Positions 30,186-64,000 of a stretch of DNA of 64,000 nt are shown here, one piece after another. Each line of letters opens with the position of its first letter. Position 1 is the stretch's first letter. Source of the DNA: an uncultured Mycoplasmatota bacterium (lineage in GTDB: Bacteria; Bacillota_I; Bacilli_A; RF39; UBA660). Position numbers and translations under genes: made by a program. The stretch covers positions 4,332 to 68,331 of the forward strand of contig CAMMJA010000002.1 of assembly GCA_946497145.1 (NCBI GenBank). Direction: 5' to 3'. A model generated the notes under the pieces. The model did not search any database. It was not told the origin of the DNA and saw only the letters and a program-made list of their open reading frames with translations.

Positions 30186-30262
30186 TGGCGCCTCAACTAG
30201 GACTTGAACCTAGGACCCCTTGATTAACAGTCAAGTGCTCTAACCAACTGAGCTATTAAGGC
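30186..30262 (-). tRNA. tRNA-Asn (GUU)
   Basis: Minus-sense cloverleaf GCCTTAA...CTGTTAA...GGTTCAAGTCC...TTGAGGCGCCA with anticodon loop CU-GUU-AA and an encoded CCA. Confidence 0.9.
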
Positions 30263-36041: not shown

Positions 36042-36117
36042 TGGTGCTGGAAACAAGACTTGAACTTGCGACCTATCGCTTACGAGACGATTGCTCTACC
36101 GACTGAGCTATTCCAGC
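36042..36117 (-). tRNA. tRNA-Thr (CGU)
   Basis: Minus sense GCTGGAATAGCTCAGTCGGTAGAGC...CT-CGT-AA...GGTCGCAAGTTCAAGTCTTGTTTCCAGCACCA. Confidence 0.9.
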
Positions 36118-52126: not shown

Positions 52127-52504
52127 TTACACCTCAATAAAATTCATGGTAACATCTGTTCTTAACACAATCTTATAAGTAACAGGATCCATCTTCTTAG
52201 ATTTACCATCTAAAGGACCACCATAAACTTCTTTTATTACTCGATTACCATAATTGTCTGTAAACTTTAATTGAAACGAATTTTGATCATACAACATTTG
52301 TAACAATGCCATTTCTTCATCGTTTAGCGCATTCCAACCGCATACAACCTTTGCACGGTTTCTTCTTACTATGTCTCGGTGTAGGTATCCTAATGAATCA
52401 ATAAAACTATTCTCTAAATGCGTGTAAGTTGGAGAATAATTTTCAGGAGAAGGAGTTGGTAAATTAAACCATCCTCCTCCAATATTTGCTTCTAATAATG
52501 CCCT
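52127..52504 (-). CDS. small tail protein (distal-tail-protein position); no canonical start
   Basis: Frame is open from 52516. Protein-like sequence runs 64 codons upstream of the first ATG (52312). AAGGAGG-N7-AGG at 52504. Confidence 0.65.
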   Translation of the reverse strand, partial: RALLEANIGGGWFNLPTPSPENYSPTYTHLENSFIDSLGYLHRDIVRRNRAKVVCGWNALNDEEMALLQMLYDQNSFQLKFTDNYGNRVIKEVYGGPLDGKSKKMDPVTYKIVLRTDVTMNFIEV

Positions 52505-52505
52505 A

Positions 52506-54467
52506 TTATACCCTCCTTATAACTGTTGATTTTCCAAGTCGATGACCTTCTTCTTCAAAATCTGGATACGTTGCTCTAGCAAATTCACGACCATTTATTT
52601 CTAAAATAATATCACCAGTATCACGACTTTCCGTTTGAATATATGGCAAAATATCCATCATAGCGTCAGTAAAAGTTTGACGCATAATATTTTGAGGAGA
52701 AACAATTTCAGGGTTACTAGAGGCACCCGGGTACTCTCCAAATTGTCCGAATGTAGGTTTATAAGCAACCGTTCCCGAAGCAAAACGTGCTCCACCACCA
52801 CCGCCACCAAATGAGCCACCAACAAATGTTTGTAATTTTCTCGTAAAAAGTCCAAGCCAATTATCAATCCTTTTTGTGCTTATTTCTGATGGAGTTATAT
52901 CCATCTCAGCTTCGATCTGTGTTCTAAATTTTTTCCCGCTTACACTTTCAATTCTGCTTACCATATCATCAATTTTATCCTTTTGTTCCTGAGTATAACG
53001 AGTTCCATCTTTCAAGTCATCTAAATAGTGATTGTATTCTTCTGCAGCTCTATCAGAAAGCCAATTTATTCTTTCTTGATTATCACCGGCTTCTTCCATT
53101 TGCGATAATATACTATCAAATGTTTTTTCTCTTATCGACATTCTTTCCTCATCCTGTTTGTTAATTTGATCCAATAATTCCTTATATTCTTTTATTTGTG
53201 ATACTAATTTGGCAATGCCGAGTGCCTCAATAAGTAACAAAGCAGTTACTATTCCATACAATCCATAACTTCCGCCTGATACACCTAAAAGACTTGCAAT
53301 TGATCCTATTGCACTTCCTACTTTCCAACCAACAAACACGGTAGCTCCTAAACCAGCAATAGTTAATAATACCTCTTTATTTTCTACACACCAATTCCAT
53401 AAATCTTTCAATTTAAGGGCTACATCTTCTATCCATTGTTTCACATTTGGATCTAATTCAATGTTTGCAAGATCAGAAAACGGATTATCTACTTTTTCAT
53501 CAGCGAAACCTCCTAAATTGTCCATTGATAAGTTAGTGATTTCATCTAATGACGTAAGTTGTTTATTTAATTCTTTTGTCGCTTGAGTCGTTCCTTTAAT
53601 ACTTTTAGTTGCCTTATTACTAGCTCTAGCAATATAGTCAATACCAGTAAATGCTTTGACAAAAACATTTACATAACCGATCAACTTCGAAATTAGGTTA
53701 GTAATAAATGTCAATACTGGCTCTAACATAGCACCGAAGCTTACCCAGTTGTTCGTTATTTTATTACTTAACTCTGTGTCATAACTTAAATAAGAACTTG
53801 CAGCTCTAGAAACAACTCTCCAAATGGACTGTATTCCAAACAAAGATAGTGCAAACCTTTTTACACTCGCTATGGATCTATCAAAACCATTTCTAATTCC
53901 TTCAGTCATATTTTGGAAAACGTTTTTTGTATCATTGGCAGACTTTTTAATATCTTTAATAGAAGACGATGCCTTTTTTATATATGTTTTATCTCCTACT
54001 TGGAATGGTTTCCCTTCGGGAATTTTTCCTATACTAGACCATGTATTGATGTATTCTTTGGTTTCATTTGCCACTTTTTTAGTTTCTTCTTTTGTTTTTG
54101 CTGTACTAGAATAAATTTTATTATATGCCTCTTGAACCTTTTGTAATGCAGTAGATAATTGGTCCATACGCTGACTTTCTTTTAAATACGTATCATCTGC
54201 GCCAGCATTATTGTAAATTTTAACTCCAGTATCGGTAGTCCATTGTCCACCTGTCGGCATTTTATACAAAACGTCTCTCTGTTCATCAATTTTTTTCTTT
54301 AAAAAAGAAAAGCTTTTTTGAAATCCAGAAGTATCTATTTTAGGTTTTATGACTGTAGAATCCTCTACCTCTTCTTTAACTCCCTTTACAATATTTTTTA
54401 CCTTATTAGCAGAGCTCTTCAATTTGGAGGTCAAATATTCTAATTCTATGCCATATTTCTCATTCCT
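52506..54467 (-). CDS. tape measure protein
   Basis: About 650 aa of coiled-coil, TM-like and G-rich segments, following the G/G-T chaperone genes. Start is either the TTG at 54434 (no SD) or GAGGG-N7-AGG at 54467. Confidence 0.85.
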   Translation of the reverse strand, partial: RNEKYGIELEYLTSKLKSSANKVKNIVKGVKEEVEDSTVIKPKIDTSGFQKSFSFLKKKIDEQRDVLYKMPTGGQWTTDTGVKIYNNAGADDTYLKESQRMDQLSTALQKVQEAYNKIYSSTAKTKEETKKVANETKEYINTWSSIGKIPEGKPFQVGDKTYIKKASSSIKDIKKSANDTKNVFQNMTEGIRNGFDRSIASVKRFALSLFGIQSIWRVVSRAASSYLSYDTELSNKITNNWVSFGAMLEPVLTFITNLISKLIGYVNVFVKAFTGIDYIARASNKATKSIKGTTQATKELNKQLTSLDEITNLSMDNLGGFADEKVDNPFSDLANIELDPNVKQWIEDVALKLKDLWNWCVENKEVLLTIAGLGATVFVGWKVGSAIGSIASLLGVSGGSYGLYGIVTALLLIEALGIAKLVSQIKEYKELLDQINKQDEERMSIREKTFDSILSQMEEAGDNQERINWLSDRAAEEYNHYLDDLKDGTRYTQEQKDKIDDMVSRIESVSGKKFRTQIEAEMDITPSEISTKRIDNWLGLFTRKLQTFVGGSFGGGGGGARFASGTVAYKPTFGQFGEYPGASSNPEIVSPQNIMRQTFTDAMMDILPYIQTESRDTGDIILEINGREFARATYPDFEEEGHRLGKSTVIRRV

Positions 54468-54834
54468 ATATTATCCCTCTCTTCTTTGCCTTTTCTATTA
54501 AAAAATCAGGCATTTTATATCTTTTTTTAGGCGGATACAGCTCAGGGCTTGCCTCTTCTGGAGTTTTAGGAAACTTATCACTAAATACTCTCCCTATTAA
54601 CACTGCATGCTTCCACAATTCGTAAGCCAATCCTTTGTTATAATTTTCTATGGTATTGATTAGTTCAAAAAGTGTCATATCATACATGTTTTCATACAAC
54701 AAACCTCTTTGCAACCCCAACTTATATAGTTGCTCTATAAAACTTCTAACGCCTCGTTCACTTTCGATAATATCTTCTCTTGAGCATGTTGTTTCATCTC
54801 TTTGGTCTGTTCTACATGCTCTTTTTTCAAAAAA
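54466..54834 (-). CDS. tail assembly chaperone T extension (-1 frameshift product G-T)
   Basis: The -1 frame is open from the slippery site through ORF 54466..54720. Confidence 0.7.
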   Translation of the reverse strand, partial: FFEKRACRTDQRDETTCSREDIIESERGVRSFIEQLYKLGLQRGLLYENMYDMTLFELINTIENYNKGLAYELWKHAVLIGRVFSDKFPKTPEEASPELYPPKKRYKMPDFLIEKAKKRGII

Positions 54835-55115
54835 CCCGAAATTACAAGCACCTCATAAATAATGTTGTTAATGATTTCATCTAGAGAATATTTTTCCAAT
54901 AAGTTATCCATTAAAGTAGTTGCTTCGTCTTTAGAAAATGTTTTGTTCGTTCCGCGAACACAATACATTAACAAAGTAGTAACAGATTTAATAGAATAAT
55001 CCTCAATAAAATCTAGTAACTTTGTATGATTTTTTTCCTCTAATTCAATAGCGTTACTTGTCGTTAATCTTAATTGATAACTTTTTTCAGCTATATCTAA
55101 TTCATAATATTTCAT
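54735..55115 (-). CDS. tail assembly chaperone G
   Basis: 126 aa between the major tail and tape measure genes. GAAGGAG-N7-ATG. Confidence 0.8.
   Translation of the reverse strand: MKYYELDIAEKSYQLRLTTSNAIELEEKNHTKLLDFIEDYSIKSVTTLLMYCVRGTNKTFSKDEATTLMDNLLEKYSLDEIINNIIYEVLVISGFLKKEHVEQTKEMKQHAQEKILSKVNEALEVL
54828..54834 (-). promoter_or_regulatory. -1 programmed frameshift slippery heptamer U_UUU_UUG
   Basis: Minus sense GGT_TTT_TTG_AAA_AAA in the 0-frame of gene G. The position near the 3' end of G is canonical for tail chaperone frameshifting. Confidence 0.65.
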
Positions 55116-55134
55116 ATTTCTTCTCCTTCATAAT

Positions 55135-55163
55135 AAAAAAGGGGCATAGTTGCCTATGACCCT
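55135..55163 (-). terminator. terminator after the major tail gene
   Basis: Minus sense GGG-U-CAUAG-GCAA-CUAUG-CCC(C) followed by U6. Overlaps the stop codon. Confidence 0.65.
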
Positions 55164-55615
55164 ATTGGTATTGTTTTTTCTGGTTCTCCAATTGGATTTA
55201 ACGTCATGCTAAATCCTAGCAAATCGCCAGTACTTCCACCTTTGATCATAGTAGTAACTTTACTTTTAAATGAAATTGTAATTCCGTTTGAGTAAGTTAA
55301 CTTCCAAAATACTGGTGTATCGTCATCTTCTAAATCACTGGCTAATTTAATGTTAGATTCAGCAGTCGGATCTTCCATGTTAAATTCAAAAGTATATTTT
55401 TGTACATCTTGTAAACCTGGAATGGAAGTTTTATATTTTTTGTTATCCATGGTTGTGGTTTCTATGTCCTCTGGTTCACTTCCGATGTCCGGAACCTGTG
55501 TGATTCCCTTTATTTGAGTATATTGTCCATCTGACGTTGAGCTATATTCTAGTTTAGTACCAGAAAATGAATGATAATTTAATTGTTCTTCCCTATTTGA
55601 TTCCTCCTTAAACAA
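55154..55615 (-). CDS. major tail protein (TP901-1/phi13-like)
   Basis: IKGITQVPDIGSEPEDIETTTMDNKKYKTSIPGL resembles this family. The TTG at 55615 lies upstream of the SD. The alternative start is AAGGAGG-N8-AGG at 55594. Confidence 0.85.
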   Translation of the reverse strand: MFKEESNREEQLNYHSFSGTKLEYSSTSDGQYTQIKGITQVPDIGSEPEDIETTTMDNKKYKTSIPGLQDVQKYTFEFNMEDPTAESNIKLASDLEDDDTPVFWKLTYSNGITISFKSKVTTMIKGGSTGDLLGFSMTLNPIGEPEKTIPIGS

Positions 55616-55979: not shown

Positions 55980-56482
55980 TTTATTACCTCCTTTAACGCC
56001 TTACCTGTATTTTTTTTATAGTTGTTGATATTTTTATTTAGTGCTGGACGAAAATGTGGTTTAGCTGGTTGAGCGTAAGCGACATAGAACTCATTACCGT
56101 TTATTACTATTTTTCTCCCTATTGCACGATTTACAGATTTAACAGGCACAAACCAATACTGATACCCACTTTCGATAAACGTTTTAGTATGTCCAATATG
56201 TGGCTCTAAAGCATAAATACCTGTACCATTTTCTATCATGCGTCCAACAGCATATCCATCGCTAGTCAAATCAGTATATACCGAAGTTTTTATGCTATCA
56301 CTGTTCACTTCTGTGTCGCTTATTTTTATACTAGAGATATACTCACCACTTTTAGCAGGTGCATATTGTATAACATCCTCCCATATTTGTTTAGCTGTCT
56401 CTCGTTGAGATTCAACTAGTTGCTTTGGTAAGGTGTCAATTATTTTCGACACATCTATAACCATCTTTTCAAATGATTTCAT
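55976..56482 (-). CDS. HK97 gp10-family head-tail joining protein
   Basis: APAKSGEYISSIK...ENGTGIYA...KPHFRPAL is typical of HK97 gp10. Confidence 0.78.
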   Translation of the reverse strand: MKSFEKMVIDVSKIIDTLPKQLVESQRETAKQIWEDVIQYAPAKSGEYISSIKISDTEVNSDSIKTSVYTDLTSDGYAVGRMIENGTGIYALEPHIGHTKTFIESGYQYWFVPVKSVNRAIGRKIVINGNEFYVAYAQPAKPHFRPALNKNINNYKKNTGKALKEVIK

Positions 56483-56811
56483 ATTCGCTCGATATCCACT
56501 CTGCTATCTGTAACGGAAATGATTTTATAAATCACTCCATTAACAAATATAAAATACTTGCTAACATTATCTTTTTTGTTATTAACTTTGGTTAATAAAA
56601 ATTTTTCTAAATCTTTTAGTGGACTCGAAATGCGTTTTACATTAACCAAATTTGATCCATAAATACTCGCTGACACCTCATCGTTTAAATATTGCGACTG
56701 TACCTTATATTTTTGAATAAGAGTATATTCAGCAACAACTCTCGCGCCATTAGGATCTTTGGAATAATTGGCCTTTTTTAATTCTACGGTTTCTAAATAT
56801 CTAAGTAACCT
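56479..56811 (-). CDS. head closure/head-tail adaptor protein (SPP1 gp16-like); no canonical start
   Basis: Protein-like frame is open from 56817 and the only canonical start is a GTG at 56676. AGG at 56811 overlaps the upstream TAG. Confidence 0.6.
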   Translation of the reverse strand, partial: RLLRYLETVELKKANYSKDPNGARVVAEYTLIQKYKVQSQYLNDEVSASIYGSNLVNVKRISSPLKDLEKFLLTKVNNKKDNVSKYFIFVNGVIYKIISVTDSRVDIERI

Positions 56812-57339: not shown

Positions 57340-58329
57340 TTAAGCATCGGCTCTAGTATAGTATGTCTCAGTACTGTCAAACTCCGCGCTAGATGGAACT
57401 TGTGTATATACACCAAAATCATAAGTGTAATAAGTAGTTCCTGAAGCAAATTCTTCGATTTCCGCTTTGGTGTAAACATAATCACAGTCATACAAAATAA
57501 CTTCTGGAACTAATGCTTGACCGCCTGAGTATGCAAATAATTCAAGTGCAATAGCGTCGTCAAATGGAATTTTTTCAGCATCATATTCGCTTAAATAATT
57601 TGGCAATGCAATTGCTTCTTCTTTTAACATAACCATGGCTGGTACATCGCTAGGCATACGGTTTGATTCATATGTGATCACTGACTGATACATACCAATT
57701 GCTCCATTTGATGGTACAGTTCCGTTAGGTAGACTATCTAAATAATCTTTCAATTCAGTTTTGTAAGTAGTGTTAACTACTAATGCTAACAAATCTTCAT
57801 CTACGCCATCAATGAAATCGTTATTGGTCACTTTGGCTGTACTGATCAATCTGTCAACAATCTTTTTAACTGTATCTCCAGATCCTCTAGCAACTTGAAT
57901 ACCTGCATCACGTGCAATTCGAAAGAATTTTCTATCATAATAAGTTTTGATGACATCTTTGGCGTTTTTACTTCTCTTTTGTGCCATACCATCAATACCA
58001 TATAGTTTTAGATCCTTTTCTTGTAATTCTTCGATGATTTCTTTGTCATCATCAATATTTACAGTTACAGGTTTAGCTTTTACTTGGTTTCCTTTGCCTT
58101 GTGCTCTAGCCGTTCCCTTGTCTTGTAACTTAGCATTAGCAAATCTTTTATATTCTACACTACCAGTAGTAGGATCCCCGCTACCATTCTTCGCTTTCAA
58201 TGCCTCGCTAACACATCCTGATTGAATATTTTCAATCACTCCGTCTAATGTTTCTGCTAAATTATCCATAACATCTGGTGTTAGATAATCAGCAATGTTT
58301 AATGAACTTTGTCTTGCCCTATCAATCAT
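57340..58329 (-). CDS. major capsid protein
   Basis: 329 aa following the scaffold gene. The ATG at 58329 abuts the SD with zero spacing. In-frame AGG at 58320 sits 9 nt after the SD. Confidence 0.86.
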   Translation of the reverse strand: MIDRARQSSLNIADYLTPDVMDNLAETLDGVIENIQSGCVSEALKAKNGSGDPTTGSVEYKRFANAKLQDKGTARAQGKGNQVKAKPVTVNIDDDKEIIEELQEKDLKLYGIDGMAQKRSKNAKDVIKTYYDRKFFRIARDAGIQVARGSGDTVKKIVDRLISTAKVTNNDFIDGVDEDLLALVVNTTYKTELKDYLDSLPNGTVPSNGAIGMYQSVITYESNRMPSDVPAMVMLKEEAIALPNYLSEYDAEKIPFDDAIALELFAYSGGQALVPEVILYDCDYVYTKAEIEEFASGTTYYTYDFGVYTQVPSSAEFDSTETYYTRADA

Positions 58330-59332: not shown

Positions 59333-60804
59333 TCTAACTCCTCTATCAGAAAATAATGTTTATCGCCTTTGGTATAATAATCTCTTGTAATAAACTTCAT
59401 ACCATATTGATATAGAACTTCTGCCTCATTTGACATTTGATTATATTCTAACATGTTTCTAGCTTTTTTGCTACCTTTTACATAAAAGAAAACATTTGCT
59501 TTGGAATTATATCCTGGTTTTAAAGAATACGCTTCAAAAGATTTTGCCTCATATACTTCTCCGACTGGATGTTGTGAAATAACAGTCTGTAATGCATGAT
59601 TATCTACCTGCAAAACTCTTGTGATAAATTCATCATTTTTGGAATTGTAGAAAGGTTGCTTATTTAGCGCTGTATATAAGTTTTTAACTAATCTTCTTTC
59701 TTTTCGATTTAATCTTTCTCCTCTATACATTTTTCTATTGATATCATAGAAATCGGCACTCTCCCATTTATTAATAGCGCTTTTTTCATTCCAATTCATA
59801 AGACTTTTATTTAACTTATCCCTAGTCATATCTAATTGATATGTTACTGTGCTTCTACACCAGTGAAAGTGATTGTTGATTGGTGGTAAATTCGCGCCTG
59901 CAACAAGACCAAATATTTTATAATTTACAATTCGTCCATCATCGTAACTATATCGTTGAAAAGTGTTCCAATCGTTCACAGAAAAAACTTGCTCGTCAAG
60001 CGATCTGCACATTTCCGTAGTTCTCTGATCTATTTCTGCTATAAATCTTACCTTGGCATTTTTGTCAACTTTTTTATAACCTTCCACCAAAGCATTGTTT
60101 ACTAATGATGTTACTTGTAGTTCTAAATCCCCACTAATTTTATCACCGTTAATATTCAAGTAACGTTTCCTTTGAGCATTTAAAATTGAGTCGTATATTG
60201 TTTTGTCGACAACCGGTTTACGGTCTTGTTGAATATCTATAACTGCTTGGCGATAAATTTGATCAGCATTGCTTAACATTGTAGCTTCAACATAATCATT
60301 CCAAATGTATCCCTTAGGATTAGGAAGTGCAAGCAACGATAACAACAAATAGTTAGGTAATCTACTAGGTTTCGATCTGTCGTTAGTTGCTCGATACACT
60401 TCTTCCTGCCCTTGTGCATATTTTGTATTTGCTACCTCATTAAACAATTTGTTTTCGTACTTATCTAGTTTAGAATGGTTTTTCACATAGGTTTTGTAAA
60501 TCAATAAGTGTAATATTTCAAAATTTTTTACTCTACTCCTATTATGAATAGAATTTGCTAAATACTTGAAATATCCACTTAACAATCCGTCATCAGACCA
60601 TTCTTCAATCAATAAATCGATTTTTTTCTTTTGTTCTGATGCGGCATATTGAAAAATATTATCTTTGTTTATATCCAGCGAATCAAAAATTGCTTGAATA
60701 TCATTTTTTAACCGTTGATTTAGTTTTATATATTTCGTTTTAAACTGTTTTAGTAACTTGTCAGTGTCATTCCATCTCGTTTGTAGTATCTGCTCTCTCG
60801 TCAT
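59329..60804 (-). CDS. minor head protein (SPP1 gp7/Mu F-like) fused to a C-terminal ADP-ribosyltransferase domain
   Basis: Central NxHxxCRS-type motif (PINNHFHWCRST). The C-terminus carries YDINRKMYRG, ITRV, SFEAYS and NEAEV, matching an R / S-x-S / E-x-E layout. Confidence 0.85.
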   Translation of the reverse strand: MTREQILQTRWNDTDKLLKQFKTKYIKLNQRLKNDIQAIFDSLDINKDNIFQYAASEQKKKIDLLIEEWSDDGLLSGYFKYLANSIHNRSRVKNFEILHLLIYKTYVKNHSKLDKYENKLFNEVANTKYAQGQEEVYRATNDRSKPSRLPNYLLLSLLALPNPKGYIWNDYVEATMLSNADQIYRQAVIDIQQDRKPVVDKTIYDSILNAQRKRYLNINGDKISGDLELQVTSLVNNALVEGYKKVDKNAKVRFIAEIDQRTTEMCRSLDEQVFSVNDWNTFQRYSYDDGRIVNYKIFGLVAGANLPPINNHFHWCRSTVTYQLDMTRDKLNKSLMNWNEKSAINKWESADFYDINRKMYRGERLNRKERRLVKNLYTALNKQPFYNSKNDEFITRVLQVDNHALQTVISQHPVGEVYEAKSFEAYSLKPGYNSKANVFFYVKGSKKARNMLEYNQMSNEAEVLYQYGMKFITRDYYTKGDKHYFLIEELE

Positions 60805-62284
60805 CTACTTCTTCCTCTTTTTCAGCATTTGTATTATCTCCAAACTTTTGAGTTCTTTCCAAGTTTTTATTAAAATTCTCGTCTGTTTCCTCGTCTCTTA
60901 ACGCTATTTCACTTTCGCTGTCCAGCTCGTACGGCAAATGATCAATCACTGTTTTATCGCTTAATAGGCCACGTAGTTTTAACCAGCCATCAATAATTTC
61001 TTGATTATTCTGTGGCAAATTACGAGTTAGGATAATTTCAATATCTCTAAAATCATACTTAGTATTCTTTTTAGTATTTATTCTATCTACAATATTTTCC
61101 CACATTCTTAACAATTCTTTTTTGAACAATTTATCTGCTTGAATCAATACTTGCTCTAAAGGGAAAAATTTCTTTTCTAAGGCGCTTGAATTATCGGCAT
61201 TAGTAAAACCTTGATCTGTTACGTTTGGTACCCCAGAAATCATAAGAGCCATATCTAAACACGTCTTTTTGTGATTTTCGCTGGCTGTATCATTGACATT
61301 CTTGATTATCCAGTCTATATCGCCATCACTTTTATCAGGTGTATAAAACACCTTTGCATTTAATATTAAATTATCTTCTTCTATTCTAGCGGGATTTTGA
61401 ATCATTTTTACATTTCCAAATTCGTCAACAACAATATTTCCGTTTTCGTCTCTTTCTTCTATCATCACTTCATTTTGAGGTTTATAACCGATTACTTTTA
61501 ATTTTGCATCGTCGTTGTATTGAAAAGTATTAGCGTTATTTCGAATAACTTGTTCGTACTTATCTATCAAAGTAATAACATTTTCAAATATTCCTATGTT
61601 ATCAGGGTTTTCAACTACTAAAGCAGGAATAAGCAACCATTTAACATCTTGCCTTTCGTCCTCTAATTCCTTAAAATTTTCCGATTGTAGTTTTTCATTA
61701 ACATAGTATCTTTTAAAATCTTCAGTAATCAATTCAACTTTATTCACAGCATTTCCGTTTGCATCAGTTTCTTCCCAACTTCTTAATACTCCAATCAATT
61801 GTCTTGGAGTTGAATAATCCCAAATACCAATCGTGTTCAATGCACTAGTATGTGCATATACGATCTCGTTGTCACTATTTTCATAAAGCAAACCATATCC
61901 TGCTCGCATTATTAAGTAATCCTTGGCTACATCATAAAAAAAACTAGAATTATCATTGTAGTCTTTAATATAATCTAAAATCACTTGAAATGAATCGGCG
62001 TCGTTATTTTCTCCAAATATTTTATCAAAAAATTTTTGTATAATATTTCTTTTTATCTCGTTTTCTTCTTTCTTTACTTTATAAACAGGATCTTTACCTG
62101 CAAAATAACCGCAGGCAATATTGGAAATGTAATATTCAAGAGCGATTTTAACGTCACTTAAATCTTTTTTTCTAGTATATCTGTTATATAATTCTTTTCG
62201 CTCATTCCATTCTTTTTCTGCTTCATTCAATAATTGAGAAATATTTTCTTCTTTTTCTATATATTCTTTTGTATATTGTAACCT
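60767..62284 (-). CDS. portal protein (SPP1 gp6-like); no canonical start near the SD
   Basis: Portal-like sequence. Frame is open from 62302. AAGGAGG (62299-62293)-N8-AGG at 62284. The first canonical start is a TTG at 62230 without an SD. Confidence 0.86.
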   Translation of the reverse strand, partial: RLQYTKEYIEKEENISQLLNEAEKEWNERKELYNRYTRKKDLSDVKIALEYYISNIACGYFAGKDPVYKVKKEENEIKRNIIQKFFDKIFGENNDADSFQVILDYIKDYNDNSSFFYDVAKDYLIMRAGYGLLYENSDNEIVYAHTSALNTIGIWDYSTPRQLIGVLRSWEETDANGNAVNKVELITEDFKRYYVNEKLQSENFKELEDERQDVKWLLIPALVVENPDNIGIFENVITLIDKYEQVIRNNANTFQYNDDAKLKVIGYKPQNEVMIEERDENGNIVVDEFGNVKMIQNPARIEEDNLILNAKVFYTPDKSDGDIDWIIKNVNDTASENHKKTCLDMALMISGVPNVTDQGFTNADNSSALEKKFFPLEQVLIQADKLFKKELLRMWENIVDRINTKKNTKYDFRDIEIILTRNLPQNNQEIIDGWLKLRGLLSDKTVIDHLPYELDSESEIALRDEETDENFNKNLERTQKFGDNTNAEKEEEVDDERADTTNEME

Positions 62285-62297
62285 ACTATTCTCCTCC

Positions 62298-63707
62298 TTA
62301 AATTATTTTGGTGTATCCAAAACTCATGGTATTAGGATTGCTATTTTCGTAAACGCCTGTTGTACAATCGGGTGCATCATCATGTTCATTTTTTCCTTCA
62401 CGTTGATATTTTTTCATCGACTTTGCATATTCAGGCCATCTCGTTTCCCAATCAATGGGGAAAAAAACATTGTTCATAACTCCTGTACTGTTGGACAAGA
62501 TTCTAGCTTGTTTATTTTCCGATTGATGAAACCAATCTATTTTTGTATGATGATTCTTCCTTTCTTTCAACTCTCTGGTAACATTCCTAGCAAATCCACG
62601 ACCGCCGTTATTAGATTCAATTTTTGCGTAACCAACACGATCTTTAGTTAACATATCAGCAACCGCTGGTTCTGTAATTTCCATTGGGTCCTTTGTAAAA
62701 ATAATATCTATAACGTATTTTTGATTATTAAAGGAAACTCCATAATTCATTGAACATAAATAATCATCTCCTTCATCAGCCGTATCTGTATAGTTCATTA
62801 TATATTTAAAAGGTGGAACTTTCTCATACTGATATGTCATAAATTTACTGTACAAACGTCCTTTTACGTCAATTGGCTCTTGTTGATAATTGGCTTCAAC
62901 AATATCCTTATTCATATTTTTTATTTTGATGTCATAATCTTTGCGTGATAAAATTTCTTCACATAACATAGTTCCGTCTTCTTGTAACGCTTTATGTTTA
63001 ATTATCCTGACTAAATCACCAAATTCTTCTATAATTTTTCCTGCCAAATCGTTTGTAGCCCATCGAGTCATAAAAACAATAACTTTCCAATTTCCTTCCA
63101 GACGAGAAAGCATAGTGTTATTAAACCAATCCCAAATTTTCTCTAATGTTCGCTCGTTGTATACTTCTTCAGCACTTTTAATAACATCATCAATTATCAA
63201 TATATTAGCACCAAATCCAGTAGCCGTTCCTCCCGGAGATGTAGCCAAATAATTTTTTTGTTTACTTCCTCTTAATGCCCATAAGTTAGCGCTTGCCTCT
63301 CCATACTTGATCATAGTTTCAGGAAATATATCGTTATACACCAATCTAGTTTTATCAATCTTTATTTCGGATATCGTATCTCTAACTTGCCTTGCAAACA
63401 TAGTAGACAAGATTTCATTATATGATCCCGTCATAATCTTTAATTCTTTATTTTTTCCAAATAACCATTCACAAGTATTTTTACTAGTAAAACTCTTCCC
63501 GTGACGTGGTGGCTCATTTAAAATTAAAAATTTATGATTCATATCATTTTCAATAAAATCTTGTATTTCTTCACATATATTTTTTAGATATATCCTGTCA
63601 TCTTTATAAAAAGTAGGATATCTTAATCGGCAATAGTCATATAAATTTCTTCGTGCTAATTCTTTTTTTGCTTCAATCTGTATATATTTAGGTATTTTAC
63701 TTTCCAT
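62298..63707 (-). CDS. terminase large subunit
   Basis: Walker-A-like PPRHGKS, IIDD Walker B and a C-terminal nuclease region, in the position between terS and portal. Confidence 0.92.
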   Translation of the reverse strand: MESKIPKYIQIEAKKELARRNLYDYCRLRYPTFYKDDRIYLKNICEEIQDFIENDMNHKFLILNEPPRHGKSFTSKNTCEWLFGKNKELKIMTGSYNEILSTMFARQVRDTISEIKIDKTRLVYNDIFPETMIKYGEASANLWALRGSKQKNYLATSPGGTATGFGANILIIDDVIKSAEEVYNERTLEKIWDWFNNTMLSRLEGNWKVIVFMTRWATNDLAGKIIEEFGDLVRIIKHKALQEDGTMLCEEILSRKDYDIKIKNMNKDIVEANYQQEPIDVKGRLYSKFMTYQYEKVPPFKYIMNYTDTADEGDDYLCSMNYGVSFNNQKYVIDIIFTKDPMEITEPAVADMLTKDRVGYAKIESNNGGRGFARNVTRELKERKNHHTKIDWFHQSENKQARILSNSTGVMNNVFFPIDWETRWPEYAKSMKKYQREGKNEHDDAPDCTTGVYENSNPNTMSFGYTKII

Positions 63708-64000
63708 TAGCCAATCTTCTCAATTCTTCCTCATTCAAATTAGCATATGGATTAGATATGTTCCCGCTATGACTAAATTCTTGTTTGTCTTCCCAACCGA
63801 AGTTATTTTTCAAATTAAAAATAACACCTGTTGCATTAGGAAAAAATAATCTTTCTTCTGCGAATTTTTCGACTCTATTGCGGGCTTTTTTTATCGTGAG
63901 GAAAAATTTATCATCTTTGGAATAATTTAATAACGATTTTCTGTCCATATCCAAAGCCAACGCTAAACCACTCATTGTATATGGCATATGTTTTTCGTCG
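63697..64000 (-). CDS. terminase small subunit (may extend beyond the window)
   Basis: The HTH-like GLALALDMDRKSLLNY...IKKARNRVEKFAEERL is typical of terS. The frame is open to the window end. Confidence 0.75.
   Translation of the reverse strand, partial: DEKHMPYTMSGLALALDMDRKSLLNYSKDDKFFLTIKKARNRVEKFAEERLFFPNATGVIFNLKNNFGWEDKQEFSHSGNISNPYANLNEEELRRLANGK

What the first reader, a model, noticed from the sequence alone, without database searches (positions are those of the whole stretch)
62230..62305. Portal gene: strong SD followed by 25 codons with no ATG/GTG/TTG
This is the clearest single case of the AGG pattern. The terminase stop (TAA, 62300-62298) is followed directly by AAGGAGG. The portal frame is closed by a TAA at 62305-62303 and then reads FKEENS-R(AGG)-LQYTKEYIEKEENISQLL before the first canonical start, a TTG at 62230 with no SD. 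With an AGG start, the conserved ELYNRY motif sits about 37 residues from the N-terminus, which is typical for portals. With the TTG start it sits at residue 13.
Basis: seen in the sequence. Interest (0 to 1): 0.7.

Follow-up and report, generated by a model that had tools for sequence, protein, structure and literature searches.

The report
Phage genes that start with AGG
The portal gene and five neighbouring virion genes of this prophage appear to begin at AGG, normally an arginine codon, and the closest related phages carry their own initiator tRNA whose anticodon has been changed to read AGG, which would be a natural "private start codon" that I could not find described anywhere.

Summary
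After the terminase stop there is AAGGAGG, then 8 nt, then AGG (62284), and no ATG/GTG/TTG until TTG 62230. The start-free stretch alone is not unusual (chance 0.2-0.3). The context is what matters.

- About 117 portal homologues and the Pfam portal profile align with the stretch upstream of the TTG, so it is coding.
- Six late-operon genes (portal, capsid, connector, tail tube, tape measure, Dit-like) show SD + 6-9 nt + AGG at their 5' boundary. The host part of the window has none.
- All six sites are conserved in diverged relatives.
- Internal AGGs align with Arg/Lys, so this is not AGG-to-Met recoding.

Relatives L001, L002 and L093/L094 (L093/L094 have the window's own terminase type) encode a tRNA(CCU) just upstream of terS. 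It is an initiator tRNA: C1xA72 mismatch, G2:C71, C3:G70, A73, and 65-84% identity to E. coli tRNA-fMet against 43-53% to tRNA-Arg(CCU). It is one base (A35 to C35) from a common phage initiator tRNA(CAU) family.

Orphan SD+AGG starts occur in 18/122 ORFs of tRNA(CCU)-bearing loci against 1/549 in controls.

The tRNA itself should lie about 110-190 nt beyond the window's end and was not seen. No experiment exists.

The parts
62293..62299 (-). Shine-Dalgarno AAGGAGG of the portal gene; its first two bases belong to the terL stop codon
   Evidence: It lies 8 nt upstream of the AGG. The equivalent SDs are GGAGGG in L002 and AAAGGAG in L093.
62282..62284 (-). AGG, inferred initiation codon of the portal gene
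   Evidence: It is the only SD-served codon between the in-frame stop (62305-62303) and TTG 62230. It is conserved in L001, L002 and L093. It aligns with the initiator Met of P0113/P0120 and of 10/12 control portals.
60767..62284 (-). SPP1-type portal gene, 505 codons from the AGG to the stop
   Evidence: Pfam PF05133, E = 5e-46, residues 7-470 matched to profile positions 3-413. 880 homologues were found.
62228..62230 (-). TTG used as the start in public gene calls (P0001, 487 aa); judged internal (Leu19)
   Evidence: No SD precedes it. Homologues align 18 residues further upstream.
62303..62305 (-). In-frame TAA that closes the portal reading frame upstream
62298..63707 (-). Large terminase gene (ATG start). 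Its five internal AGG codons serve as the test that AGG still means Arg.
   Evidence: AGG codon 374 aligns with R in 27/27 homologues; codons 38 and 106 align with R/K.
63697..64000 (-). Small terminase gene, cut by the window's end. Its true start is about 64080, and ATG 63987 is internal. The tRNA(UAU)+tRNA(CCU) pair is predicted at about 64111-64265, outside the window.
   Evidence: The window frame aligns from residue 27 of L093 terS. In L093 the tRNA(CCU) ends 30 nt before the terS ATG.
57340..58320 (-). Major capsid gene, probable AGG start at 58320. An in-frame ATG at 58329 directly abuts the SD and is the database start.
   Evidence: The context is AAAAGGAG-ATG-ATT-GAT-AGG. The Met of the L054 capsid protein aligns exactly with this AGG. 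The AGG is conserved in L002 and L093, where the upstream ATG is a GTG. This case is less certain than the others.
56479..56811 (-). Head-tail connector-like gene with an AGG start. The SD is weak, and the upstream gene's TGA lies 6 nt before the AGG.
   Evidence: There is no canonical start for 45 codons and no ATG in the ORF. The AGG is conserved in L001, L002 and L093. Gene callers leave a gap here.
55154..55594 (-). Tail tube gene with an AGG start (TAAGGAGG + AATCAAAT + AGG)
   Evidence: Pfam Phage_TTP_11. The next canonical start is 48 codons downstream. The AGG is conserved in L001, L002 and L093.
52506..54467 (-). Tape-measure gene with an AGG start, one codon after the in-frame stop (AGAGGGATAA-TAT-AGG)
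   Evidence: The AGG is conserved in L001 and L093. Homology to the L053/L054 tape-measure proteins begins at residue 8.
52127..52504 (-). Dit-like (DUF6711) gene with an AGG start (TAAGGAGGG + TATAAT + AGG)
   Evidence: The next canonical start is 64 codons downstream. There is a weak DUF6711 hit. The AGG is conserved in L001 and L093.

Best explanation
The portal gene starts at AGG 62284, not at TTG 62230. Five further genes of the same late operon also start at AGG: capsid (probable), connector, tail tube, tape measure and Dit-like.

These AGG codons are read in the ribosomal P site by a phage-encoded initiator tRNA whose anticodon is CCU instead of CAU. That is a single A35-to-C35 change from a common family of phage initiator tRNAs. 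The gene sits at the head of the late operon, just upstream of terS.

Internal AGG codons remain arginine and are read by the host elongator tRNA. The C1xA72 mismatch keeps the phage tRNA out of elongation. AGG therefore has a dual meaning, as GUG and UUG do.

Shown here:
- The N-terminal extension is coding.
- The SD+AGG sites are conserved.
- The tRNA's initiator features are present.
- The tRNA and orphan AGG starts co-occur in at least three phage lineages.

Inferred:
- The window's own prophage carries the tRNA, about 110-190 nt past the window's end.
- The tRNA is charged (probably with Met, given U20 rather than the Arg determinant A20) and formylated.
- The arrangement makes synthesis of virion proteins depend on the phage's own tRNA, either as a translational gate on late genes or as independence from the host initiator tRNA.
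For: (1) The extension is coding.
- 117 portal homologues align with it, and P0113/P0120 have Met on the AGG column.
- 10/12 portals from control loci have Met there.
- The Pfam profile starts at residue 7 of the AGG-started protein.

(2) SD spacing is 6-9 nt at all sites. At the tape-measure gene only one codon separates the in-frame stop from the AGG.

(3) Conservation. AGG is kept at portal, capsid, connector and tube in L002, and at all six genes in L093, while spacers and neighbouring codons change. Between the window and L002, internal AGG is kept in only 1 of 4 cases.

(4) The tRNA(CCU) in L001, L002, L003, L093 and L094.
- It has C1xA72, A73, G2:C71 and C3:G70.
- It is 65-84% identical to E. 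coli metZ, against 43-53% to argW.
- Its stems covary: 12 pairs with compensatory changes, and 93.8% of cells paired against 79% in shuffles.
- It is one base away from phage initiator tRNA(CAU) genes that share the same anticodon arm.

(5) Correlation. Orphan SD+AGG starts occur in 18/122 ORFs of tRNA(CCU)-bearing loci, 1/549 in controls, 6/27 in the window's phage part and 0/50 in its host part. Independent lineages L016/L007 and L011/L055 show the same, and in L016 Pfam profiles begin at the AGG for Phage_min_cap2 and the P22 coat protein.

(6) Internal AGG means Arg.

(7) L093, which has the window-type terS/terL (78% nt identity), has the tRNA 30 nt before terS.

(8) A normal initiator reads non-near-cognate codons at only 0.01-1% of AUG in E. 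coli.
Against: - The tRNA was not seen in the window. Its presence in this prophage is inferred from colinearity with L093, and the rest of the 76-kb contig could not be retrieved.
- The tRNA family lacks the canonical three G:C pairs of the anticodon stem; only G30:C40 is kept. In wild-type E. coli, initiators mutated in all three pairs do not initiate.
- Charging is untested. C35 and U36 are arginine identity elements, and CAU is the main MetRS determinant.
- In the large portal alignment the AGG column is mostly K/R. AGG could therefore descend from an ordinary Arg codon.
- At the capsid gene here, and at the portal and tape-measure genes of L093, an in-frame ATG or GTG lies 3 codons upstream, although it abuts or sits inside the SD.
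- There are no proteomic or ribosome-profiling data.
Confidence: 0.75

Rival explanations
1. AGG is the start codon but is read by the host's ordinary initiator tRNA(CAU) as a near-cognate codon (second-position mismatch). This would be helped by strong SDs and by termination-reinitiation coupling. The phage tRNA(CCU) would then be unrelated to initiation.
For: AGG differs from AUG at one position. Most sites lie directly after the upstream gene's stop, as TAA-GGAGG. The tRNA is not visible in the window itself.
Against: In E. coli such codons initiate at 0.01-1% of AUG, which is too low for capsid and tail-tube proteins. Host genes in the window never use AGG starts (0/50), and control phages almost never do (1/549). 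AGG starts occur where an initiator-type tRNA(CCU) is present.
Confidence: 0.08
2. The phage tRNA(CCU) is a codon-supplementing elongator tRNA-Arg for the rare AGG codon. The SD-proximal AGGs would be ordinary Arg codons, and the genes would start elsewhere: TTG 62230 for the portal, or the ATG/GTG that abuts the SD in other genes.
For: ARAGORN labels the tRNA as tRNA-Arg by its anticodon. AGG is the host's rarest Arg codon at 12 per 10,000, and is three times more frequent in the phage. The AGG column is K/R in most portal homologues.
Against: C1xA72 is unpaired in 13/13 family members, and the tRNA is far closer to initiator tRNA than to tRNA-Arg(CCU). It has U20, not A20. The homologous N-terminal sequence lies upstream of the TTG. 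Tube, Dit and connector have no canonical start for 45-64 codons. The tape-measure AGG is one codon after the in-frame stop.
Confidence: 0.06
3. The host uses an alternative genetic code in which AGG is a methionine sense codon, as in the UBA7642 Bacilli clade. AGG would then act as a start as well.
For: An AGG-to-Met reassignment exists in uncultivated gut Bacilli, and two phages are predicted to use that code.
Against: Internal AGG aligns with conserved Arg/Lys: terL codon 374 is R in 27/27 homologues. Usage here is AGG 12-38 and ATG 183-240 per 10,000, with AGA/CGT as the main Arg codons. The reassigned clade has AGG 209-235 against AUG 59-69. The tRNA is of initiator type, not an Arg-derived elongator.
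Confidence: 0.02
4. The prophage is decaying. The late genes have lost their ATG starts by mutation and are no longer expressed, or the AGGs are assembly errors.
For: It is a prophage in a metagenome-assembled genome, and the public gene calls are truncated or missing.
Against: The same ATG-to-AGG change would have had to occur at six genes. It is conserved across independent assemblies from different samples at 72-99% protein identity, with all ORFs intact. It recurs in unrelated phage lineages together with the tRNA.
Confidence: 0.03
5. The portal is made as a terminase-portal fusion by a +1 frameshift at ATT-TAA-G, so it needs no start codon of its own.
For: Skipping one base at the terL stop would enter the portal frame.
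Against: In L002/L003 a different terminase family with a different stop position precedes the same SD+AGG. The other five AGG genes have the same architecture with unrelated upstream genes. The SD lies downstream of the putative shift site, not upstream as in prfB (own knowledge).
Confidence: 0.01

Closest known systems
Bacterial initiator tRNA (tRNA-fMet, e.g. E. coli metZ/W/V) and phage-encoded copies of it
   Same: C1xA72 mismatch, G2:C71, C3:G70, A73, and 65-84% sequence identity. The D-arm and T-arm are near-identical, and the anticodon loop is CU-NNN-AA with A37. Phage tRNA(CAU) genes with the same acceptor stem and anticodon arm are common.
   Different: The anticodon is CCU instead of CAU. 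The anticodon stem is A:U / G:C / U.G instead of three G:C pairs. The 4:69 pair is A:U instead of G:C. I found no report of a natural initiator with a non-CAU anticodon.
Engineered orthogonal initiation: amber initiator tRNA(CUA) used for phage biocontainment (bioRxiv 10.1101/2024.07.29.605542) and i-tRNA(AAC) (10.1101/2021.05.25.445580)
   Same: An initiator tRNA with a changed anticodon starts translation at a matching non-AUG codon behind a normal SD. Essential phage genes are made dependent on that tRNA.
   Different: Those systems are man-made and the tRNA is supplied by the host strain. Here the system is natural, the phage encodes the tRNA, and the codon is a sense codon (AGG) that keeps its Arg meaning internally.
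Stop-codon recoding in phages with phage-encoded suppressor tRNAs (own knowledge: Borges et al. 2022; Peters et al. 2022)
   Same: A phage-encoded tRNA with an altered anticodon changes how a codon concentrated in late and structural genes is read. This plausibly ties late-gene translation to the phage's own tRNA.
   Different: That is reassignment of a stop codon during elongation. Here the change affects initiation only, and no sense or stop codon changes meaning inside genes.
AGG-to-Met reassignment in UBA7642 Bacilli (Shulgina & Eddy 2021, PMC8629427)
   Same: A tRNA(CCU) that lacks A20, has A73, G2:C71 and C3:G70, and is presumably charged by MetRS despite C35. It is found in gut Firmicutes.
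   Different: That is an elongator tRNA derived from tRNA-Arg, acting genome-wide with AGG as the dominant Met codon. Here internal AGG stays Arg, and the tRNA is initiator-derived and phage-borne.
Natural non-canonical starts read by the normal initiator (AUU of infC, own knowledge; GTC of sigR, listed among the hits as PMC5472188)
   Same: A non-AUG/GUG/UUG start codon behind an SD.
   Different: Those are single regulatory genes expressed weakly under IF3 control. Here six abundant virion proteins are involved, and a dedicated tRNA is present.

Membership tests
Bacterial initiator tRNA (for the tRNA(CCU) of relatives L001/L002/L093 and the wider family) | No Watson-Crick pair at 1:72 (C1xA72) | tested here: met
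   cmscan marks 1:72 as a non-pair. It is unpaired in 13/13 aligned family members.
Bacterial initiator tRNA (for the tRNA(CCU) of relatives L001/L002/L093 and the wider family) | G2:C71 and C3:G70 (formyltransferase determinants) and the A73 discriminator | tested here: met
   Invariant in 13/13. Their role is taken from PMC6393288.
Bacterial initiator tRNA (for the tRNA(CCU) of relatives L001/L002/L093 and the wider family) | Three consecutive G:C pairs in the anticodon stem (29:41, 30:40, 31:39) | tested here: not met
   Only G30:C40 is kept (13/13). 29:41 is mostly A:U and 31:39 mostly U.G. The phage CAU members share the same stem.
Bacterial initiator tRNA (for the tRNA(CCU) of relatives L001/L002/L093 and the wider family) | A11:U24 in the D stem | tested here: inconclusive
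   A:U in 9/13 members, including L001. It is U:A in L002/L093, L011 and L064, and G:C in L024.
Bacterial initiator tRNA (for the tRNA(CCU) of relatives L001/L002/L093 and the wider family) | CAU anticodon | tested here: not met
   The anticodon is CCU. This is the defining departure.
Bacterial initiator tRNA (for the tRNA(CCU) of relatives L001/L002/L093 and the wider family) | Charged with Met, formylated, and delivered by IF2 to the P site | not testable with these tools
   This needs charging and formylation assays.
Elongator tRNA-Arg(CCU) | Paired 1:72, A20 in the D loop, and overall similarity to tRNA-Arg | tested here: not met
   C1xA72. Position 20 is U in the D loop (A)GUGGUA. Identity to argW is 43-53%, against 65-84% to metZ.
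AGG-to-Met sense-codon reassignment (UBA7642-type code) | Internal AGG at Met/hydrophobic columns, and AGG more frequent than AUG | tested here: not met
   Internal AGG aligns with R/K. AGG is 12-38 and ATG 183-240 per 10,000, against the figures.
SPP1-type portal protein (PF05133) | Full-length match to the family profile above the gathering score | tested here: met
   157.9 bits against a cut-off of 25.5. Residues 7-470 match profile positions 3-413 of 416.
Translation start site (for AGG 62284) | SD at functional spacing, no alternative start, homologous N-terminus, and conservation | tested here: met
Translation start site (for AGG 62284) | Direct evidence of initiation (N-terminal peptide or initiating-ribosome footprint) | not testable with these tools
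   No proteomic or Ribo-seq data are available.
Phage code switch by a phage-encoded tRNA | The tRNA gene is present in the same phage genome as the recoded genes | tested here: inconclusive
   Met in L001, L002, L003, L093, L094, L007, L016 and L055. For the window itself, the predicted site (about 64111-64185) lies outside the window.

The most novel reading that the evidence does not exclude
This would be a natural orthogonal initiation system. A temperate phage of gut Firmicutes carries an initiator tRNA whose anticodon has mutated from CAU to CCU, and it has converted the start codons of its virion genes to AGG. Virion proteins could then be made only once the phage's own initiator tRNA is expressed. 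That would act as a translational developmental switch, and possibly as a way to keep initiating when the host initiator tRNA is depleted or attacked. It would be the first natural initiator tRNA with a non-CAU anticodon and the first dedicated addition to the bacterial start-codon set.
Probability: 0.6. Interest if true: 0.95.

Novelty: categorically new. Interest (0 to 1): 0.9.

Why it matters
If confirmed, this extends natural genetic-code variation to initiation. All known bacterial and phage code changes concern elongation or termination, and every known initiator tRNA reads AUG-like codons with a CAU anticodon. Several consequences would follow.

- It would show that nature already uses the trick that synthetic biologists built for orthogonal expression and phage biocontainment.
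- It would give a new mechanism for timing or insulating late-gene expression in temperate phages.
- It would offer a ready-made, evolved orthogonal initiator/start-codon pair for Gram-positive hosts.
- It would expose a systematic annotation error. Gene callers truncate or miss these genes: the portal is listed as 487 or 472 aa, the tube is called 60 codons late, and the connector is not called at all. tRNA finders label the tRNA as tRNA-Arg.

Tried and rejected
- BLAST of the 75-nt tRNA against E. coli genomes and the phage collection gave only T-arm fragments and was uninformative. It was replaced by alignment to annotated metZ, metU and argW.
- Look-ups of the window's own contig through five of its proteins (portal, terL, terS, MuF, LeuRS) all failed. 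The genome-collection scan did not return it either. The tRNA could therefore not be checked in this prophage.
- Promoter and terminator scans around the tRNA pair were at chance level.
- AGG-to-Met recoding was considered first and rejected on internal AGG columns and codon usage.
- A terL-portal frameshift fusion was rejected because the junction is not conserved while SD+AGG is.
- ATA or ATT inside the extension (62260, 62242) have no SD.
- ORF 54852..54466, which has a long start-free stretch, is most likely the frameshift extension of the tail-assembly chaperone, not an AGG gene.
- AGG 49225 and AGG 658, flagged by the scans, are judged internal or spurious.
- A search for the same tRNA scaffold with other anticodons found only CAU and CCU.
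Full report
**1. The observation**

All coordinates are on the minus strand.
- The large-terminase gene ends with TAA at 62300-62298.
- The portal frame is closed by TAA at 62305-62303.
- AAGGAGG lies at 62299-62293.
- After an 8-nt spacer comes AGG at 62284-62282.
- The frame then reads LQYTKEYIEKEENISQLL up to the first canonical start, TTG 62230, which has no SD. The first ATG is codon 131 of the open frame.

The description is accurate, with one small correction. ELYNRY begins at residue 31 counted from the AGG. It is 37 only when counted from the frame opening.

A run of 24 codons without ATG/GTG/TTG is not unusual in this AT-rich DNA (P = 0.18-0.31). The case therefore rests on the context.

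**2. The stretch upstream of the TTG is coding**

- Pfam SPP1_portal matches residues 7-470 of the AGG-started protein, beginning at profile position 3.
- Of 880 homologues, the best 117 non-trivial ones (about 60% identity) start 'M(svve)K/R-IQY-sdeFL-sEENI'. This aligns with the window's 'S-R(AGG)-LQY-tkeYI-ekEENI'.
- Some of them (P0113, P0120) start M-IQY, so their Met sits on the AGG column.
- In a second set of portals, taken from control phage loci, the AGG column is Met in 10/12.
- Public gene calls for this protein and its close relatives start at the TTG (P0001, P0002; 487 aa) or even later (P0003; 472 aa). These calls are truncated.

**3. The same pattern occurs in five more genes**

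In the whole window, on both strands, only seven sites combine all of these: an SD, an AGG 4-10 nt downstream, at most 20 codons to the upstream in-frame stop, and an ORF of at least 40 codons. Six of them lie on the coding strand of the late operon:

| Gene | AGG position |
|---|---|
| Portal | 62284 |
| Major capsid | 58320 |
| Connector-like | 56811 |
| Tail tube | 55594 |
| Tape measure | 54467 |
| Dit-like | 52504 |

- For tube, Dit-like and connector, the next canonical start is 45-64 codons downstream.
- For the tape measure, the AGG is one codon after the in-frame stop.
- The capsid case is less certain, because an in-frame ATG at 58329 directly abuts the SD. However, the Met of the L054 capsid protein aligns exactly with the AGG.
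- The first 45 kb of the window is host chromosome: LeuRS, ClpB, formate-THF ligase and a P-type ATPase. The host is an uncultured Clostridia-type MAG. This part has no such site (0/50 long ORFs).

**4. The sites are conserved**

Contigs of relatives were retrieved.

| Locus | Relation to the window |
|---|---|
| L001 | 92-97% nt identity over the structural module |
| L002/L003 | 82% portal identity, with a different terminase family |
| L093/L094 | Window-type terS/terL, 78% nt identity |

- The portal junction has diverged: TTAGGAGGG-ATATAT-AGG-ATA in L002 and AAAGGAG-TGATACAT-AGG-ATA in L093. The AGG and an SD at 6-9 nt remain.
- All AGG sites that fall within the retrieved DNA are conserved.
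- Between the window and L002, internal AGG is kept in only 1 of 4 cases. The others are AGA (twice) and CGC.

**5. AGG still means arginine inside genes**

- terL AGG codon 374 aligns with R in 27/27 homologues.
- terL codons 38 and 106, and MuF codon 89, align with R/K.
- Portal codon 211 aligns with N/S/R/K.
- AGG is rare: 12 per 10,000 in the host part and 38 in the phage part, against ATG at 183-240.

This is unlike the UBA7642 Bacilli, where AGG is the dominant Met codon (PMC8629427). Wholesale AGG-to-Met recoding is rejected.

**6. The mechanism suggested by the relatives**

L001, L002, L003, L093 and L094 carry two tRNA genes just upstream of terS: tRNA(UAU) and tRNA(CCU). ARAGORN names the second tRNA-Arg from its anticodon, but it is an initiator tRNA in every other respect.

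- Rfam's tRNA model marks 1:72 as a non-pair, C1xA72.
- The acceptor stem is CGCAGGG/CCCUGCA-A-CCA, against CGCGGGG/CCCCGCA-A-CCA in E. coli metZ.
- It is 71-73% identical to metZ, against 46-53% to argW and 47-48% to elongator metU.
- Family members from other phages and prophages reach 83-84% identity to metZ (L016, L023, L026).
- Position 20 is U, not the arginine determinant A20.
- In an alignment of 13 family members the cloverleaf stems covary. There are 12 pairs with compensatory changes. 93.8% of cells are paired, against 79% in shuffles and 39-48% in slid controls.
- In the same alignment, C1xA72 is unpaired in 13/13, and G2:C71, C3:G70 and G30:C40 are invariant.
- According to PMC6393288, the 1x72 mismatch together with 2:71 and 3:70 are the formyltransferase determinants. 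The mismatch also keeps the tRNA away from EF-Tu and peptidyl-tRNA hydrolase.
- The same acceptor stem and anticodon arm (CAGUCU-NNN-AAGCUG) occur in many phage tRNA(CAU) genes. In that scaffold only CAU and CCU anticodons were found. The CCU form is therefore a one-base (A35 to C35) derivative of a common phage initiator tRNA.
- L054, a relative with conventional starts, has an initiator-like tRNA(CAU) with A1xA72 at the same genomic position.

**7. The tRNA and AGG starts go together**

Three scans were made with a pattern for this tRNA: viral contigs, species-representative genomes and metagenomes. They returned bona fide tRNA(CCU) genes in at least three phage lineages, some on 144-778-kb low-GC bacterial contigs.

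| Sequence set | Long ORFs with an SD+AGG start and no SD+canonical start |
|---|---|
| tRNA(CCU)-bearing loci | 18/122 |
| 26 control phage loci (terL relatives, no tRNA(CCU)) | 1/549 (Fisher p = 2.6e-13) |
| Window, phage part | 6/27 (p = 4e-8 against controls) |
| Window, host part | 0/50 |

The loci are not all independent, but the window group, the L007/L016 group and the L011/L055 group are unrelated phages.

In L016 the AGG-start genes are again virion genes directly after terL. Pfam profiles begin at the AGG: Phage_min_cap2 position 1 at residue 2, P22 coat position 6 at residue 5, and Minor_capsid_2 position 10 at residue 11.

**8. Link to this window**

The tRNA is not in the window; only host tRNA-Asn and tRNA-Thr are present. 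L001 shares only the structural module with the window, and similarity starts at 62327. I therefore looked for relatives of the window's own terminase.

- L093/L094 (terL 83% identical) carry the tRNA pair, with tRNA(CCU) ending 30 nt before the terS ATG.
- The window's terS frame aligns from residue 27 of L093 terS.
- So terS itself runs off the window, with its true start at about 64080.
- The tRNA(CCU) is predicted at about 64111-64185.

This is an inference. The rest of the contig could not be retrieved.

**9. How it most likely works**

An SD positions the 30S subunit. The phage initiator tRNA(CCU) pairs with AGG in the P site. Internal AGGs are read as Arg by the host elongator tRNA, because an initiator-type tRNA is excluded from elongation.

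- With a normal initiator, non-near-cognate codons give only 0.01-1% of AUG in E. coli (bioRxiv 10.1101/063800). That is too little for capsid and tail-tube proteins, so a dedicated tRNA makes functional sense.
- The initiating residue is probably (formyl-)Met. The tRNA has U20, A73, G2:C71 and C3:G70. C35 is reported as the least critical anticodon base for MetRS (quoted in PMC8629427).
- Arg cannot be excluded, because C35 and U36 are ArgRS determinants.
- The biological purpose is inferred only. One possibility is a translational gate that makes virion synthesis depend on the phage tRNA. Another is independence from the host initiator tRNA.

**10. Weak points**

- The tRNA was not observed in this prophage.
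- The family lacks the three G:C pairs of the anticodon stem. In wild-type E. coli these are needed for initiation, although the phage CAU members share this stem.
- Charging is untested.
- The AGG column is K/R in most portal homologues.
- A few sites have an ATG or GTG abutting the SD three codons upstream.
- There are no experimental data.

**11. Novelty**

Eight full-text searches found no report of a natural AGG start codon or of an initiator tRNA with a non-CAU anticodon. They found only engineered analogues: the amber initiator used for phage biocontainment, and i-tRNA(AAC). The library is incomplete, so prior description cannot be excluded.

The closest natural analogue in concept is stop-codon recoding of phage late genes with phage-encoded suppressor tRNAs (own knowledge).

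Noticed in passing
window 63697-64000 (-): The small-terminase gene runs off the window's end. The ATG at 63987 listed as its start is internal. The frame aligns from residue 27 of the 128-aa terS of L093.
   Followed up: yes
window 54466-55127 (-): Two overlapping ORFs lie between the tail tube and the tape measure: 55127..54735 with an ATG start, and 54852..54466 with no start for 44 codons. They look like the usual tail-assembly-chaperone pair joined by a programmed frameshift. No slippery site was searched for.
   Followed up: no
window 62327 (-) / L001:5219: There is a mosaic breakpoint. L001 is 92-97% identical to the window from about 27 nt before the terL stop onward, but it has an unrelated terminase module (Terminase_3, 419 aa) upstream. 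The structural module with AGG starts is thus combined with different packaging modules.
   Followed up: partly
window 62285, 58321, 56812, 55595, 54468, 52505 (-): The base before the AGG is T at all six window sites, and at about 14 of 19 sites across lineages. The tRNA keeps A37. This fits the reported fourth base pair between initiator tRNA A37 and U(-1) (title and abstract of PMC10018350, listed; the detail of the pairing is own knowledge). It was counted by eye only and the sites are not independent.
   Followed up: partly
L001:3353-3428; L002:8150-8226; L093:9263-9339: A tRNA(UAU), reading AUA, always sits 3-4 nt before the tRNA(CCU). It has a U1:A72 pair and a variable acceptor stem, so it looks like an elongator tRNA-Ile. 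Whether it relates to AUA usage or to AUA starts was not examined.
   Followed up: no
L001:3463-3469: The tRNA(CCU) of L001 has an anticodon loop CCCCUAA, with C33 in place of the near-universal U33. L002, L093 and all other members have CUCCUAA.
   Followed up: no
L054:7345-7420: A relative with conventional start codons carries an initiator-like tRNA(CAU) with an A1xA72 mismatch and two G:C pairs in the anticodon stem. It sits at the same position upstream of terS. Phage-borne initiator tRNAs seem common in this phage group.
   Followed up: partly
L001:3320-3345; L002:8125-8150: A conserved AT-rich hairpin followed by a T run (GAACTAgaaaTAGTTCTTTTT) lies directly before the tRNA pair. It may be the terminator of the preceding operon. 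It is too GC-poor for the terminator scan, which found nothing above chance.
   Followed up: partly
window 58329 (-); L093:11238 and 19003: In several AGG genes an in-frame ATG or GTG lies exactly three codons upstream of the AGG and directly abuts or overlaps the SD (GGAG-ATG, GGAG-TG, GAG-GTG). Gene callers pick these. Whether they are relics of former starts or are used at a low level is unknown.
   Followed up: partly
window 1-45181: AGG is one of the two rarest Arg codons in the host part (12 per 10,000, similar to CGG at 13). It is three times more frequent in the prophage. TTG is unusually frequent as a Leu codon (338 per 10,000).
   Followed up: no
window 30186-30262 and 36042-36117 (-): Host tRNA-Asn(GUU) and tRNA-Thr(CGU) genes are the only tRNAs inside the window.
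   Followed up: no
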